IMG/VR virus record: IMGVR_UViG_2681813320_000017
DNA from: a virus
Taxonomy: Duplodnaviria > Heunggongvirae > Uroviricota > Caudoviricetes
DNA: 4,569 nt
Direction: 5' to 3' (one strand)
Below, piece by piece: positions 338-4,569 of this stretch; positions within the stretch are counted from its first letter, which is position 1; each line of letters begins with the position of its first letter. Below the pieces are notes generated by a model. It saw only the letters and a program-made list of their open reading frames with translations. It did no database searches and was not told where the DNA came from. Position numbers and translations under genes: made by a program.

Positions 338-481
338 TTAGTGAATGCTTTTGCTTGATCTCAGTTTCAGTATTAATATCCATTTTTTATAAGCGTCGAC
401 GGCTTCACGAAACATCTTTTCATCGCCAATAAAAGTGGCGATAGTGAATTTAGTCTGGATAGCCATAAGTGTTTGATCCAT
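338..481 (-). CDS. kil: Kil, host cell-division inhibitor (47 aa)
   Basis: Internal Met of the 338..607 track [50 protein letters not shown] matches my recollection of lambda Kil along its whole length. ATG at 479-481, CAGGAG upstream, stop TAA at 338-340. Overlaps the 3' end of cIII as in lambda. Confidence 0.8.
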
Positions 482-614
482 TTTTTGGGACTCCTGGCTG
501 ATTAAGTATGTCGATAAGGCGTTTCCATCCGTCACGTAATTTACGGGTGATTCGTTCAAGTAAAGATTCGGAAGGGCAGCCAGCAACAGGCCACCCTGCA
601 ATGGCATATTGCAT
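450..614 (-). CDS. cIII: CIII, FtsH protease inhibitor that stabilises CII (54 aa)
   Basis: Internal Met of the 450..674 track [57 protein letters not shown] matches recalled lambda CIII. ATG at 612-614 preceded by AAGGAG at about 6 nt spacing; stop TAA at 450-452. Confidence 0.85.
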   Translation of the reverse strand: MQYAIAGWPVAGCPSESLLERITRKLRDGWKRLIDILNQPGVPKNGSNTYGYPD

Positions 615-762
615 GGTGTGCTCCTTATTTATACATAACGAAAACGCCTCGAGTGAAGCGTTATTGGTATGCATATAAAAAGGCCCTCACACTGGAGGGC
701 AAAGAAGATTTCCAATAATCAGAACAAGTCGGCTCCTGTTTGGTTACGAGCGACATTGCTCC

Positions 763-790
763 GTGTATTCACTCGTTGGAATGAATACAC
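763..790. repeat. Perfect 9-bp inverted repeat (GTGTATTCA / TGAATACAC) with a 10-nt loop, in the ORF156-cIII intergenic region
   Basis: gtgtattca at 763-771 is the exact reverse complement of tgaatacac at 782-790. It lies just downstream (in the leftward transcript) of the ORF156 stop at 805-807. No U-tract follows, so it is not a classical intrinsic terminator. Confidence 0.4.
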
Positions 791-804
791 AGTGCTTATT
801 CGTA

Positions 805-1275
805 CTAATAAAACACCCAGTTTTCTGTTTCTTGGTTGTGTCCAAAGTTATATTCAATATCTGGTGTTGATGTATCAATATTCTTCATCCCATCAACAAG
901 AGTTGATACAACAGCCAAATCTTGTTTGATTCTCATTAAATGGTATTTCTTCCGGTGCAATAAACTCTCAATGGCAAGTTTCTTCGTTGGGAATGCAAAA
1001 GATCTTTCTGCATTTTTTGCTACTTTCTTAATTGCATATCTATTTCTCCTTTGTTTCCATTCCTGTAACCACTGATTTGGTGCTGGTTTAAAATTAACAA
1101 TCCAATGCGCAGGAACCAACCATGCATAATGCTCTGTCTGATGAAAAGCTATATATTGAAGTGCGAATATTTTTATCCCATCTTCTTCAACTGTCGCCTG
1201 GAATCTCCAGAAAACAGGCATTCCATCATGTTCAGTTTCTGATTCAGGAAAAGGTACGCTCCATGATTTTGTCAT
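805..1275 (-). CDS. Hypothetical protein, 156 aa, no recognisable family; accessory gene between N and cIII
   Basis: Full ORF with ATG at 1273-1275 preceded by GAGGTGA about 6 nt upstream; stop TAG at 805-807. Same strand and operon context as N, cIII, kil and gam. Visibly AT-richer than the flanking core genes. I cannot match it to lambda ral, sieB or ea10. Confidence 0.7.
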   Translation of the reverse strand: MTKSWSVPFPESETEHDGMPVFWRFQATVEEDGIKIFALQYIAFHQTEHYAWLVPAHWIVNFKPAPNQWLQEWKQRRNRYAIKKVAKNAERSFAFPTKKLAIESLLHRKKYHLMRIKQDLAVVSTLVDGMKNIDTSTPDIEYNFGHNQETENWVFY

Positions 1276-1333
1276 ATCTCACCTCAAATAAGTGGTTTGC
1301 TGCCTAATTTCATTTTCTGGCGACCAACACAAG

Positions 1334-1606
1334 TCACCTCGCCGTCAGTTGTTTGGATTTCCGGTAGCCTGCAGCGTAAATGGCTACGTTTGGAAGACAA
1401 GTTGAACCTTCATATTTTCTGGTCAACGTTGTCAGAGTTATAACTTCTGCTCTCATTGCTGGTTTGCGCTTGCATTGCAAGACCACTCGTGAAGGGGTTG
1501 GCCTGTGTAGCTTGTCGGAGCTAATCGACTCCTGACTTTGCAGGTTTGCGCGACGAGCTCTACGGCGAGAAGCTGCGGTGCCTTTAAATTCTGTTTTTCT
1601 GGACAT
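1334..1606 (-). CDS. N: N-like transcription antitermination protein (90 aa) with N-terminal arginine-rich motif
   Basis: The track ORF 1334..1678 has an internal ATG at 1604-1606 preceded by a strong SD (GGGAGGA, about 5 nt spacing). The product starts MSRKTEFKGTAASRRRARRANLQ..., an arginine-rich motif like the boxB-binding ARM of lambdoid N proteins (my recollection is that it is closest to the phage 21 type). It sits immediately downstream of a boxA/boxB nut site, in the position N occupies in lambda. Confidence 0.75.
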   Translation of the reverse strand: MSRKTEFKGTAASRRRARRANLQSQESISSDKLHRPTPSRVVLQCKRKPAMRAEVITLTTLTRKYEGSTCLPNVAIYAAGYRKSKQLTAR

Positions 1607-1704
1607 AGATTCCTCCCGAATAAACTTTGGCGATGCAATCTCGAAGCTCCTCCTGAGACGGTTGCTTCGGCATTGCATCCCACAGCTTATGTGGTTGGGT
1701 GATC

Positions 1705-1751
1705 TGGCTTTTCAGCCACGTAGTCGAGAGTTCGACGTTGTTTAAAGAGCC
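1705..1751 (-). promoter_or_regulatory. nutL: nutL-like site: boxA (GGCTCTTTAAACAACG, rc of 1736-1751) plus boxB hairpin (UGGCU-GAAA-AGCCA, rc of 1705-1718)
   Basis: On the minus strand, GCTCTTTAAACAACG matches the boxA consensus (GCTCTTTAACAA-like). It is followed after 17 nt by a perfect 5-bp stem with a GAAA loop. The same arrangement (GCTCTTT..AACAACG, then ..CTACGT.GCTGAAAAGC.AG hairpin) recurs downstream of cro at 4205-4250. A second small hairpin, GTCGA-ACTC-TCGAC, lies in the spacer. Confidence 0.6.
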
Positions 1752-2056: not shown

Positions 2057-2740
2057 TTAGGGGGTTGAGACTCCAGAGAGCAATCCGTAGATTTTATATA
2101 CAGCAAATGCTAATGCTGGCAAGCCAAGGGCCCATTTGATTATATCAAGCTTAACATCACTAAGCTTACCTTCTAACTTTGCCTCTTGAACAGAAAGAGC
2201 TGCATCGATCTTTTTTGATTGGGAGTCAAGGGCACTCTCAATTCTACTCGATTGTATGTCCAGACGACTGTTGATTTGTTCGTGCTGAGTAACAACTAAA
2301 TGCTTCATCTCCTTTATATCTGAAGCCATTAGTTCACGCCATTTGGCCATATCAGCCTGCATTTTTGAGGCCACTGCATCCACTTCAGCTTTATTTGCCT
2401 TCAGAAGTGCCTGTATTTCGTTTCTGCTCAAATCGGACATTGCGGTTCCCTGTATAGGAGTTTCCTCGTACGGTGGGATAACATTAGATTGTCCTTTACA
2501 ATCGGCAACCCCTCCTTTATCTACGATTGTAGCAGTTAGCTGGGAATTGGTCGCATCATCCACCATGTTTTTTGGTGAATAAGAGGAAATAGGCGTAGAA
2601 AACAGATTACCTTTTGCTGTTTCCATGAACATCATGAAATCGCGAGTATTAACGTTATTCAGGGAAACTTGCAGTGGTTTAACAATACTTGATGTTTTGT
2701 AAGTAATAGTTAAATCACCTACTTCTTCCGGTTGTTGCAT
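2057..2740 (-). CDS. Hypothetical membrane-anchored coiled-coil protein (227 aa); distal gene of the cassette at the rexAB position
   Basis: ATG at 2738-2740 overlaps the upstream gene's stop (TAATG, translational coupling); stop TAA at 2057-2059. Ser/Thr/Asn-rich N-terminal about 100 aa; central region with heptad-like charged/hydrophobic periodicity (EIQALLKANKAEVDAVASKMQADMAKWRELMA...IDAALSVQEAKLEGKLSDVKLD); single C-terminal hydrophobic helix IIKWALGLPALAFAVYKIYGLL. Not similar to lambda RexA or RexB. Confidence 0.75.
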   Translation of the reverse strand: MQQPEEVGDLTITYKTSSIVKPLQVSLNNVNTRDFMMFMETAKGNLFSTPISSYSPKNMVDDATNSQLTATIVDKGGVADCKGQSNVIPPYEETPIQGTAMSDLSRNEIQALLKANKAEVDAVASKMQADMAKWRELMASDIKEMKHLVVTQHEQINSRLDIQSSRIESALDSQSKKIDAALSVQEAKLEGKLSDVKLDIIKWALGLPALAFAVYKIYGLLSGVSTP

Positions 2741-3060
2741 TACGACTTCGCTCCATTAGAGTTTTGTGCCTCTAATTGTTCGAAAAGAAGAACTATATTC
2801 TCTTGAAGAGCCTTTAGTTGTGCCATTGGCATTATCACAGTGCATTGCTGATTGAGTTCATTTACAGAGCCTATCTGCATATTCGCTCTACCTGGTTGAT
2901 CTGGTATATCATTTTGGGATAGTACCGCAGGTATTGACTTGTTTGCGATAAAATGTATACAAATGAGATTTTTTTCCGCTCCCGGTAGTGGAGCAAAACT
3001 AGCGAAGTCCGCATAGGTTTCAATATAATCCACAGATGGTTTAATTTTGACCGGTTCCAT
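2740..3060 (-). CDS. Hypothetical small protein (about 106 aa); proximal gene of the cassette at the rexAB position
   Basis: Track ORF 2740..3075 begins with TTG (3073-3075) then ATG (3070-3072), neither with an SD. The ATG at 3058-3060 (MEPVKIKPSVDYIETY...) is preceded by GAGAGG, so I place the start there; alternative starts at 3072 or 3075. Stop TAA at 2740-2742 overlaps the ORF227 ATG. No recognisable domain. Confidence 0.65.
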   Translation of the reverse strand: MEPVKIKPSVDYIETYADFASFAPLPGAEKNLICIHFIANKSIPAVLSQNDIPDQPGRANMQIGSVNELNQQCTVIMPMAQLKALQENIVLLFEQLEAQNSNGAKS

Positions 3061-3077
3061 AACGCCTCTCATCAAAT

Positions 3078-3183: not shown

Positions 3184-3891
3184 TCACAAACTTTTCAGCC
3201 ACTCCCTTGCCTCGATGTCATCCAGATGACGAGATTGCTTCAGAATACCAGCCACATACTCCACCTTTGCTACTTGATGATAAGGTAACGTTATTGGCCT
3301 GTGGTCCTGGTTGATGCTTGTAAATTGGTATTCTCCATCTCTGTCATAGCCAAGAATCTTGATCATGTTGTGTCCTTCAACGGTTCTGACAAACACCTCA
3401 TCCCCCGGGAATACTTTGGTGTTAGGCTCAATGAGTACATATTCTCCTGATTTTATTCTGGGCCACATGCTGTCTCCTTTCACACGAAGACCAAAGGCAT
3501 CTGGATCATCACTATAAATCTTGAGCCACCCATCGCGCTCTTCGGTCATCTCGATGGCACCATCAACACCAAGAATTGCCTCACCAACCACGCGCACTAA
3601 CCCTTTTTTTAATTTGCCAACAAATGAAAGAGTATCTTCATCATTCGCTCCATTTAACGAAGTGCCGTGCTGAAGCCAAACAACATCAACGTTTAGAAAT
3701 TTCGCAAGCGCATTCATTTTTTCCTGACGCGGTAAAGACTCAGCATTAAACCATTTGCTAACGCCTTTGGACGAAAGAGAAAGGGCACGGGCTATGGCCA
3801 TACCCCTACCATGTTCATCAAGACCAGCTTCTTTACAGGCTTGCGCTAGCCGCTGGGCGAATTCTTTGCGCACTTTTTCATTCTGAACCAT
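3184..3891 (-). CDS. cI: CI-type prophage repressor, N-terminal HTH DNA-binding domain plus C-terminal LexA-like S24 autopeptidase domain (235 aa)
   Basis: ATG at 3889-3891, stop TGA at 3184-3186. HTH-like segment GMAIARALSLSSKGVSKWFNAE; catalytic Ser in GDSMWP (Ser141) and Lys in HNMIKIL (Lys178), with 37-residue Ser-Lys spacing as in LexA. Divergent from cro across a 78-bp operator region. No SD before the ATG, consistent with a lambda-like leaderless pRM transcript. Confidence 0.9.
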   Translation of the reverse strand: MVQNEKVRKEFAQRLAQACKEAGLDEHGRGMAIARALSLSSKGVSKWFNAESLPRQEKMNALAKFLNVDVVWLQHGTSLNGANDEDTLSFVGKLKKGLVRVVGEAILGVDGAIEMTEERDGWLKIYSDDPDAFGLRVKGDSMWPRIKSGEYVLIEPNTKVFPGDEVFVRTVEGHNMIKILGYDRDGEYQFTSINQDHRPITLPYHQVAKVEYVAGILKQSRHLDDIEAREWLKSL

Positions 3892-3969: not shown

Positions 3970-4197
3970 ATGCAAAATCTTGATGAGCCGATTAAAGGTG
4001 TCGGCATCCCTGAAGTTGCGAAGGCTTGTGGAGTTAGCGAAAGGGCTGTCTATAAGTGGCTCAAAAACGGCTTCCTCCCTAAGACTGAGTTTTTTGGGAA
4101 AACGAAATACGCCTCAAAAATCGAAGAGATTTCTGGTGGCAAATATCAAGCAAGCGAATTGCTTGAAATAAGCAAAAAGAACCTTCTGGCAGCATAA
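3970..4197 (+). CDS. cro: Cro-like repressor / HTH DNA-binding protein (75 aa)
   Basis: ATG at 3970-3972 preceded by AAGGG at about 8 nt; stop TAA at 4195-4197. HTH-like segment IPEVAKACGVSERAVYKWLKNG. The track ORF starts at ATG 3937, but that codon lies inside the pR -10 hexamer and has no SD. First rightward gene, divergent from cI. Confidence 0.8.
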   Translation: MQNLDEPIKGVGIPEVAKACGVSERAVYKWLKNGFLPKTEFFGKTKYASKIEEISGGKYQASELLEISKKNLLAA

Positions 4198-4335: not shown

Positions 4336-4569
4336 ATGGAACAAACAAGTTACAGCAAACTATCACAGCGCGACGTTGATCGCGCAGAAACAGATTTACT
4401 TATCAACCTGTCAACGCTTACCCAGCGCGGTCTGGCAAAGATGATTGGCTGTCATGAATCGAAGATAAGCAGAACGGACTGGAGATTTATTGCTTCGGTC
4501 TTGTGTGCTTTCGGAATGGCATCAGACATCAGTCCGATTAGCAGGGCTTTTAAGTATGCGCTTGATGAA
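4336..4569 (+). CDS. cII: CII-like transcriptional activator, N-terminal 78 codons; runs off the right edge of the window
   Basis: ATG at 4336-4338, open to the window end, so absent from the ORF track. Translation: MEQTSYSKLSQRDVDRAETDLLINLSTLTQRGLAKMIGCHESKISRTDWRFIASVLCAFGMASDISPISRAFKYALDE. The HTH followed by ...KISR..W resembles the lambda CII helix-turn-helix region (..VDKSQISRWKRDW..). Position after cro and nutR matches lambda gene order. Confidence 0.7.
   Translation, partial: MEQTSYSKLSQRDVDRAETDLLINLSTLTQRGLAKMIGCHESKISRTDWRFIASVLCAFGMASDISPISRAFKYALDE

What the first reader, a model, noticed from the sequence alone, without database searches (positions are those of the whole stretch)
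805..1275. Unknown 156-aa gene in the N-to-cIII slot (where lambda has ral/sieB/ea10)
This position in the pL operon is another variable moron slot that commonly carries anti-restriction, superinfection-exclusion or host-takeover functions. The gene has a good RBS, is AT-rich relative to its neighbours, and I cannot match it to any lambda protein. It is expressed early in lytic growth from pL (N-antiterminated), so an anti-defence or host-modulating role is plausible.
Basis: inference. Interest (0 to 1): 0.5.

Follow-up and report, generated by a model that had tools for sequence, protein, structure and literature searches.

The report
Conserved early phage gene, function unknown
The 156-codon ORF is a real, conserved gene, the same protein as HK97 gp45 and 933W L0079; it sits just after the antiterminator gene N, belongs to a widespread uncharacterised phage family with a confidently predicted fold that matches no solved structure, and nothing yet shows what it does.

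Summary
There is an ATG-started 156-aa ORF at 805-1275 on the minus strand, preceded by a GAGGTGA ribosome-binding site. Its GC is 36% against 45-51% for its neighbours. It lies between N (1334-1606) and cIII (450-611).

The protein is 98-99% identical to HK97 gp45, 933W L0079 and phi24B vb_24B_11c. It occurs in 598 of 5426 complete E. coli genomes and is always annotated "hypothetical". It evolves under purifying selection.

The slot is exchangeable. Other prophages carry sieB, ral or ea10 there, and the gene sits behind at least four N alleles. It also co-occurs with ral, so it is not simply a Ral substitute.

No intrinsic terminator separates it from N, and two follow it. It may therefore be made together with N rather than depending on antitermination.

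The protein is soluble and basic, with no catalytic motif. My best guess, at low confidence, is a stoichiometric early binder of nucleic acid or of a host factor. An anti-defence role is untested.

The parts
805..1275 (-). CDS of 156 aa (18.6 kDa, pI 8.8). Orthologue of HK97 gp45, 933W L0079 (NP_049479) and phi24B vb_24B_11c. Member of PHROG 1636.
   Evidence: ORF list. PHROG 1636 match, E 1.4e-111, full length. 98.7-99.4% aa identity to HK97, 933W and phi24B. dN/dS 0.06-0.16. AF2 pLDDT 92.6, pTM 0.80.
1279..1285 (-). Shine-Dalgarno sequence GAGGTGA, ending 3 nt before the ATG at 1275.
   Evidence: Read directly from the sequence.
1276..1333 (-). 58-nt N-to-gene spacer. It holds one 7-bp hairpin with no U-tract and no predicted intrinsic terminator.
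   Evidence: Terminator scan finds nothing here. Fold z-score 0.05, hairpin followed by AGAAAAUG. The same 58-nt spacing is the commonest in related prophages.
1334..1606 (-). Antiterminator gene N (90 aa from the SD-supported ATG at 1606). Context: the gene immediately upstream.
   Evidence: PF25694 N_peptide, E 1.6e-31, full length.
683..700 (-). First intrinsic terminator after the gene: GCCCTCCAGTGTGAGGGC followed by CTTTTTAT.
   Evidence: Terminator scan. Fold z -3.2 for 635-780. A putative terminator is annotated at the same offset after gene 45 in the HK97 record.
643..662 (-). Second intrinsic terminator in tandem: AACGCTTCACTCGAGGCGTT followed by TTCGTT.
   Evidence: Terminator scan and fold.
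450..627 (-). cIII gene (450-611) with its 5' thermoregulator RNA (569-627). This is the downstream boundary of the slot.
   Evidence: PF02061, E 1.4e-30. Rfam RF01804, 88.5 bits.

Best explanation
**What is shown**
- The ORF is a genuine protein-coding gene, the HK97 gp45 / 933W L0079 orthologue.
- It encodes a soluble, basic, single-domain alpha/beta protein. The predicted elements are a long three-stranded antiparallel sheet (residues 19-55), two short helices, a short strand at 83-86 (with a bridge near 95), one 33-residue amphipathic helix (98-130), and an ordered C-terminal tail ending in a conserved aromatic-acidic pair.
- It belongs to an uncharacterised family spread through temperate and apparently virulent phages.
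- It behaves as a self-contained accessory cassette that sits close to N in lambdoid pL operons.

**What is inferred**
- It lies before the first intrinsic terminators, so it is probably made together with N at the very start of lytic growth.
- The family has no conserved catalytic-type motif. Only A101 is invariant, and G33, E46, T47 and K87 are nearly so. E46 is Q in this protein.
- The conserved side chains are mostly buried aromatics plus a set of basic residues: R24, K83, K84, K87, R91/S92, K98, R108-K110 and K117/Q118.
- It therefore most likely acts stoichiometrically as a binder, not as an enzyme.

**My committed guess**
- The basic surface engages nucleic acid: phage or host DNA, or RNA.
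- Binding would condition or protect the incoming or replicating genome.
- The function would be non-essential and advantageous only in some hosts.
For: - Gene reality: homologues, purifying selection, and a confident AF2 model with the deep alignment.
- Charge: pI is 8.8, with a family median of 9.0. Residues 61-130 carry 16 K+R against 5 D+E. The basic positions are conserved.
- Helix 98-130 is amphipathic, with the conserved basic residues lying off its hydrophobic face.
- It is soluble: the highest Kyte-Doolittle 19-residue window is 0.56.
- No enzyme family matches.
- Structural relatives occur in phages of Erwinia, Achromobacter, Delftia, Rhizobium, Sinorhizobium, Tenacibaculum and Cellulophaga. 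That breadth points to a universal target such as nucleic acid.
- Neighbours are usually DNA-transaction genes: ParB-like and RusA, ParB-like and primase, DNA methylases, RecE and a replication initiator, and recombination modules.
- Placement with N and before the terminators.
Against: - hhalign against an integrase arm-binding domain was negative.
- A basic patch could equally bind an acidic protein surface.
- Lying among DNA-metabolism genes is true of most early phage genes, so it discriminates poorly.
- I could not inspect model coordinates, so clustering of the basic residues on one face is not shown.
- Early, N-independent expression is inferred only from the absence of a predicted intrinsic terminator.
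Confidence: 0.3

Rival explanations
1. Classical counter-defence or host-takeover inhibitor. The protein binds and blocks a host protein, such as a restriction or other defence enzyme, a nuclease, or a housekeeping machine. This is how the other small pL-operon proteins work by established knowledge: cIII on FtsH, Kil on FtsZ, Gam on RecBCD, Ral on EcoKI.
For: - It occupies the exchangeable N-to-cIII slot that elsewhere holds ral and sieB.
- It is placed to be among the first proteins made.
- It is AT-rich and mosaic: it sits behind at least four N alleles, with or without ea10.
- 62%-identical copies have moved into unrelated siphoviruses.
- It is a stand-alone small protein with no enzymatic signature.
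Against: - No similarity to any known anti-defence protein I could test.
- DefenseFinder did not flag it in phages that carry it (PMC12502783).
- It co-occurs with Ral.
- The fold family reaches phages of Bacteroidota and alpha- and beta-proteobacteria. That is broader than most inhibitors of a single defence system.
- It is basic, not an acidic DNA mimic.
Confidence: 0.27
2. Developmental regulator of the phage itself. It tunes the lysis-lysogeny decision, early transcription or replication, as cIII does and as the exo-xis region genes are reported to do.
For: - It lies next to N and cIII in the regulatory heart of the phage.
- It is basic, as a DNA- or RNA-binding regulator might be.
- The exo-xis accessory genes are reported to influence the lysis-lysogeny decision (abstract of PMC7093339, listed).
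Against: - It is present in phages that look virulent and have no lysogeny module nearby. Structural relatives occur in many non-lambdoid phages.
- It is absent from lambda and from many lambdoid phages with the same regulatory genes.
- It assorts independently of the N and cI alleles.
Confidence: 0.12
3. Prophage-expressed exclusion or defence gene, a moron in the strict sense. It would be made in the lysogen and protect it against other phages, as SieB does in the same slot.
For: - Same slot as sieB.
- Own terminator and deviant base composition, both typical of morons.
- Very common in E. coli prophages: 598 of 5426 genomes.
Against: - No promoter-like site was found on its strand upstream. 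The same scan also failed to flag pL, so this is weak evidence.
- Same orientation and tight spacing behind N argue for pL-driven lytic expression.
- No transmembrane segment, unlike SieB.
- No PADLOC match.
- Homologues occur in apparently virulent phages.
Confidence: 0.08
4. A conserved ORF that is not functional: a decaying or spurious reading frame.
For: No function, phenotype or publication was found.
Against: - Purifying selection.
- Full-length conservation down to about 20% identity across phage groups.
- Confident single-domain fold prediction.
- Strong RBS.
Confidence: 0.02

Closest known systems
HK97 gp45 / 933W L0079 (ST933Wp19, NP_049479) / phi24B vb_24B_11c / PHROG 1636
   Same: 98.7-99.4% amino-acid identity. 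Same strand and same position directly after N. In HK97 the arrangement is exactly that of the window: N, gene 45, terminator, cIII.
   Different: Essentially nothing. In 933W and phi24B an ea10 gene lies between it and cIII, and the window lacks it. All of these are annotated only as hypothetical, so the match names the gene but gives no function.
Lambda N-to-cIII slot genes: sieB, orf28, ral, ea10 (DUF2528)
   Same: Same genomic interval, and exchangeable with them between otherwise near-identical prophages. All are small accessory genes.
   Different: No sequence or profile similarity. It is soluble rather than membrane-associated, unlike SieB. It co-occurs with ral and with ea10, so it does not substitute for either.
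Small pL-operon host-protein inhibitors: cIII on FtsH, Kil on FtsZ, Gam on RecBCD (functions from established lambda biology)
   Same: Same operon, same size class, non-enzymatic, early expression. This is the functional analogy behind the counter-defence or host-takeover rival.
   Different: No homology. No target is known. Its family reaches far beyond lambdoid phages.
Immediate-early anti-restriction proteins such as T7 Ocr (gene 0.3) (my own knowledge)
   Same: Positioned to be among the first proteins made after DNA entry.
   Different: Ocr is a highly acidic DNA mimic, whereas this protein is basic (pI 8.8). No fold match to any solved structure.

Membership tests
PHROG 1636 / HK97 gp45 orthologue group (uncharacterised) | Full-length sequence match to the family profile | tested here: met
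   E 1.4e-111 over 1-156 of 156. All 62 members of the wider alignment also match PHROG 1636.
PHROG 1636 / HK97 gp45 orthologue group (uncharacterised) | N-proximal position, same strand, in a lambdoid pL operon | tested here: met
   Same strand as N in the window, with a 58-bp spacer. Of 65 IMG/VR prophage loci with enough flank, 63 have a recognised N homologue within 2.5 kb upstream. Among 76 loci with an N upstream, spacing is at most 113 bp in 54.
Ral (restriction alleviation) | Sequence or profile similarity to Ral | tested here: not met
   The family profile finds nothing in lambda 31.0-38.5 kb (contains ral) or in L016 (contains a Ral gene) at E<=10.
Ral (restriction alleviation) | Alleviates type I restriction in vivo | not testable with these tools
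   Needs plating assays on EcoKI-type hosts.
SieB superinfection exclusion | Sequence similarity to SieB | tested here: not met
   No profile hit in L015 or L020, which encode SieB.
SieB superinfection exclusion | Membrane-spanning hydrophobic segment (SieB as a membrane protein is my own knowledge) | tested here: not met
   The highest 19-residue Kyte-Doolittle mean is 0.56.
Ea10 / DUF2528 | Profile similarity | tested here: not met
   hhalign probability 0.15. No Pfam hit.
Known anti-phage defence proteins (PADLOC-DB) | Match to a defence-system HMM | tested here: not met
   The only hit is Cas1_II at E 0.02, 12 bits.
Known anti-defence families (DefenseFinder / dbAPIS type libraries) | Match to a curated anti-defence model | not tested
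   No such library is available here. Indirectly, PMC12502783 ran DefenseFinder on phages that carry this gene (phi296, phi345, phi367) and reported only methyltransferases, Ral and Gam.
AP2 / integrase arm-type three-strand-plus-helix DNA-binding domain (a lead from the motif RSFAFPTKKLA) | Profile or fold similarity | tested here: not met
Moron (own promoter and terminator, deviant composition, prophage expression; definition is my own knowledge) | Own terminator and deviant base composition | tested here: met
   Two terminators follow the gene. GC 0.36 against 0.45-0.51.
Moron (own promoter and terminator, deviant composition, prophage expression; definition is my own knowledge) | Own promoter active in the lysogen | tested here: inconclusive
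   No sigma-70-like site on the minus strand in 600-2100. The scan did not flag pL either, so it is insensitive.

The most novel reading that the evidence does not exclude
The gene is the E. coli representative of a large, unrecognised family of immediate-early phage proteins with a fold not yet seen in any solved structure. The family would neutralise or hijack a broadly conserved bacterial machine or defence by a new binding mode. HK97 gene 45 would then be a ready-made genetic handle on a new class of host-takeover or counter-defence factor shared by temperate and virulent phages of several bacterial phyla.
Probability: 0.2. Interest if true: 0.6.

Novelty: new member of a known kind. Interest (0 to 1): 0.33.

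Why it matters
The gene is carried by about 11% of complete E. coli genomes, including the Stx1- and Stx2-converting prophages of O157:H7, and by the model phage HK97. It sits where the phage's first proteins are made, yet it has no assigned function.

This work shows three things:
- It belongs to a broad phage family.
- With a deep alignment it gives a confident structure prediction that matches nothing solved.
- It travels as an independent cassette.

That makes it a reasonable, cheap target for a knock-out and binding study in HK97. By itself, a conserved hypothetical early gene in a known variable slot is ordinary for phage genomes.

Tried and rejected
**Searches that found nothing**
- Pfam, NCBIfam, PADLOC and PDB sequence searches with the single protein.
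- Pfam over all 62 family members at E<=5: no recurrent family.
- PDB search with the family profile: best E 0.7.
- The second database search, with the wide alignment, returned only "hypothetical" names and no informative domain fusion.
- Literature searches by locus tag, accession, gene name and topic found no study of this gene. Three candidate papers turned out to concern the HK97 capsid fold, gp45 of phage HK578, or other early-left genes.
- Rfam found only the cIII thermoregulator in the window.

**Ideas tested and dropped**
- Distant homology to lambda Ea10, Ral or SieB.
- Two long profile hits, P0057 and P0070, looked like domain fusions but are repeat or junk sequences.
- A conserved gene neighbour. 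None was found across about 15 contexts; ParB-like genes recur in three. N is a recurrent upstream gene in lambdoid prophages but is not a fixed partner, because several N alleles are involved.
- Plus-strand ORFs overlapping the region (836-1075 and 1122-1307) are treated as shadow frames. All homology and selection signal is in the minus-strand frame.

**Technical failures**
- The first AF2 run, with only 21 close homologues, was poor (pLDDT 59) and was replaced by the deep-alignment run.
- The AFDB fold libraries were not available.
- The search for related loci could not use the wide alignment.

Full report
**1. The observation**

The window is the immunity and early-left region of a lambdoid phage, read leftward on the minus strand.
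- cII starts at 4336 and cro is at 3970-4197, both on the plus strand.
- On the minus strand come a 933W-type cI (3184-3891), two genes in the rexAB position (2740-3075 and 2057-2740), and a terminator (2051-2032).
- These are followed by N (1334-1606), the ORF in question (805-1275), two terminators (700-683 and 662-643), cIII (450-611), kil (338-481) and the start of gam.

It has 156 codons and an ATG start, with GAGGTGA ending 3 nt upstream. It is AT-rich: GC 0.36 and GC3 0.29, against 0.45-0.51 in the flanks.

It is not a chance ORF.
- It has full-length homologues from 99% down to about 20% identity.
- dN/dS is 0.06-0.16 against close relatives. Against more distant ones dN is 0.2-0.3 with dS saturated.

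**2. Identity**

At the DNA level the gene and its junction with N are 98.9% identical to phage 933W and many Stx1- and Stx2-converting phages.

The protein is 99.4% identical to 933W L0079 (ST933Wp19) and phi24B vb_24B_11c, and 98.7% identical to HK97 gp45.

HK97 has the window's exact arrangement: N, gene 45, putative terminator, cIII. 933W and phi24B have an extra ea10 gene before cIII.

The gene is present in 598 of 5426 complete E. coli genomes (834 copies, all at least 95% identical). NCBI's pipeline always calls it "hypothetical protein".

**3. Searches for a known family**

Sequence searches gave nothing.
- Pfam's best is Tmem26 at E 0.1. NCBIfam has none. PADLOC's best is 12 bits. PDB's best is E 0.099.
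- PHROGs gives a full-length match to PHROG 1636 (E 1.4e-111) and weaker ones to 13631 and 25384. All are "unknown function".

The word-indexed search found only Enterobacterales relatives at 55% identity or more.

A profile built from those, scanned against 1.84 billion representative proteins, found 94 proteins at E<=1e-3. Most are 130-160 aa and align end to end.
- All 62 members I aligned also hit PHROG 1636, and 51 hit PHROG 13631.
- None carries a Pfam domain, and no family recurs even at E<=5.
- No member has an informative fusion, and no source gives any member a name.

**4. Structure**

With 21 close homologues AlphaFold2 was poor (pLDDT 59). With the 62-sequence family alignment it was confident: pLDDT 92.6, pTM 0.80, all five models above 91.

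The model has these elements:
- strands at 19-30, 33-46 and 50-55
- short helices at 56-61 and 66-74
- a strand at 83-86
- a 33-residue helix at 98-130
- an ordered C-terminal tail

Comparison with solved structures found no relative.
- Foldseek against 350,542 PDB chains gave no match with E<=0.001. The best was 0.47.

Foldseek against predicted viral structures gave 13 matches at E<1e-3, all uncharacterised. They come from phages of Erwinia, Achromobacter, Delftia, Rhizobium, Sinorhizobium, Tenacibaculum and Cellulophaga.

So the fold is phage-wide and has no solved relative. The AlphaFold-database libraries were unavailable.

**5. Sequence features**

- The protein has pI 8.8, and the family median is 9.0.
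- The N-terminal 60 and C-terminal 26 residues are acidic. Residues 61-130 carry 16 K+R against 5 D+E.
- Across the family only A101 is invariant. G33, E46 (Q in this protein), T47 and K87 are nearly invariant.
- The other conserved positions are aromatic or aliphatic, or basic: R24, K76, R77, K83, K84, K87, position 92, K98, R108, K109 and position 118.
- Helix 98-130 is amphipathic, and the conserved basic residues lie off its hydrophobic face.
- There is no membrane-spanning segment.
- Nothing resembles a catalytic motif.

**6. Genomic context**

The slot is exchangeable.
- Lambda holds sieB, orf28, ral and ea10 there.
- E. coli prophages with the same cI, rex-slot genes and N as the window hold sieB+ea10, ral alone, or a 107-aa ORF plus this gene plus ea10.

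I examined 80 IMG/VR prophage loci that carry the gene.
- 63 of the 65 with enough flank have a recognised N homologue upstream on the same strand.
- The N alleles are of at least four kinds.
- The spacing ranges from 8 to 1227 bp. The window's 58 bp is the commonest.
- ea10 is present downstream in some and absent in others.

More distant relatives also lie in pL operons next to various recombination modules: ERF, RecT with Gam, and GamL with RecT. In Pectobacterium the gene sits next to xis-int.

Copies at 62% identity lie in the siphoviruses TanjaMuster_Bas81 and Salmonella NX263. There they head a short operon with a ParB-like gene and RusA, set among structural genes.

Still more distant members lie among small early genes near methylases, a primase or RecE.

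In phage phi296 the gene sits directly after ral.

No gene is a constant neighbour.

**7. Expression (inferred)**

- No intrinsic terminator is predicted between N and the gene. The only hairpin in the 58-nt spacer lacks a U-tract, and the fold is no better than shuffles.
- Two canonical terminators follow the gene. The HK97 record annotates one at the same offset.
- The gene therefore shares a terminator-bounded unit with N.
- In lambda the first leftward terminator, tL1, lies beyond N (my own knowledge). By analogy this gene may be expressed before antitermination, not only after it.
- Rho-dependent termination and internal promoters cannot be judged with these tools.

**8. Interpretation**

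Three things are shown:
- a real, selected, soluble and basic single-domain protein
- an uncharacterised phage-wide family
- an independent cassette placed close to N

The function is inferred. With no catalytic signature and a conserved basic surface, the protein most likely works by binding.

I commit, at 0.30, to nucleic-acid binding that conditions or protects the phage genome early in infection. The classical alternative, a protein-protein inhibitor of a host enzyme or defence system, is almost as likely at 0.27. The slot fits it, but no specific evidence supports it. The remaining rivals are:
- developmental regulator, 0.12
- prophage-expressed exclusion gene, 0.08
- non-functional ORF, 0.02

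The remainder is "something else".

**9. Comparison with what is known**

- The gene is the same gene as HK97 gp45 and 933W L0079, so the ORF itself is not new.
- It is a positional analogue of lambda ral, sieB and ea10, but it fails every similarity test against them. It co-occurs with ral and with ea10.
- It matches no PADLOC defence protein.
- A published DefenseFinder analysis of phages carrying it did not flag it (PMC12502783).
- I found no paper that studies it.

**10. Verdict**

It is a further, uncharacterised occupant of a known kind of accessory slot. Interest is moderate to low at 0.33.
- In its favour: it is common, it is present in a tractable model phage, and it has a confident fold prediction with no solved relative.
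- Against it: conserved hypothetical early genes are the rule in phage genomes, and nothing here is surprising to a specialist.

Noticed in passing
window 2057-3075 (minus strand): Two overlapping genes occupy the rexA/rexB position between cI and pL. One is a 111-aa ORF (2740-3075) with no family match. The other is a 227-aa protein (2057-2740) with a sub-threshold CCDC90-like coiled-coil match (E 2e-6, 28.1 bits, below the 33.5-bit cut-off) and a hydrophobic C-terminus. A strong terminator follows at 2051-2032. This looks like a prophage-expressed two-gene module, possibly for exclusion or defence. PADLOC finds nothing. HK97 gp48 at the same position shares only a 36-residue stretch (E 4e-6), and gp49 shares none.
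   Followed up: partly
window 1334-1678 (minus strand); L024-L103: The window's N is not the 933W/HK97 N. In most related prophages with the same 58-bp N-to-gene junction the N protein is only about 40% identical to the window's. DNA identity to 933W runs from the target gene into the last roughly 65 nt of N. This suggests a recombination junction inside N. The mechanical ORF extends to an ATG at 1678, but the SD-supported start at 1606 gives a 90-aa N that matches PF25694 nearly end to end.
   Followed up: partly
window 675-804: ea10 (DUF2528) lies between this gene and cIII in 933W, phi24B and many prophages. It is missing here, as in HK97, leaving only about 130 bp with the two terminators.
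   Followed up: yes
window 569-627 (minus strand): The lambda cIII thermoregulator RNA element (Rfam RF01804, 88.5 bits) is intact upstream of and overlapping the cIII start.
   Followed up: no
L014 4001-6270; L019 3501-5901: In the siphoviruses TanjaMuster_Bas81 and Salmonella NX263 a 62%-identical homologue is the first gene of a short operon. The operon also holds a ParB-like protein, small ORFs and RusA (the NX263 record annotates that ORF as DNA polymerase III beta), and in NX263 an ORF annotated as a MarR-type regulator. It is inserted in opposite orientation among head and tail genes. A ParB-like gene also lies two genes downstream in Klebsiella phage VLCpiS10a.
   Followed up: partly
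window 1705-1750 (minus strand): Upstream of N there is a boxA-like GCTCTTTAAACAA (1750-1738) and a 5-bp hairpin with a GAAA loop, TGGCTGAAAAGCCA (1718-1705). By eye these look like nutL. I read them from the sequence only and did not test them.
   Followed up: no
L004 686-1609: A lambdoid contig carrying a 43%-identical relative has a gene with a BstA C-terminal domain, a known prophage abortive-infection defence, in the position between the immunity region and N.
   Followed up: no
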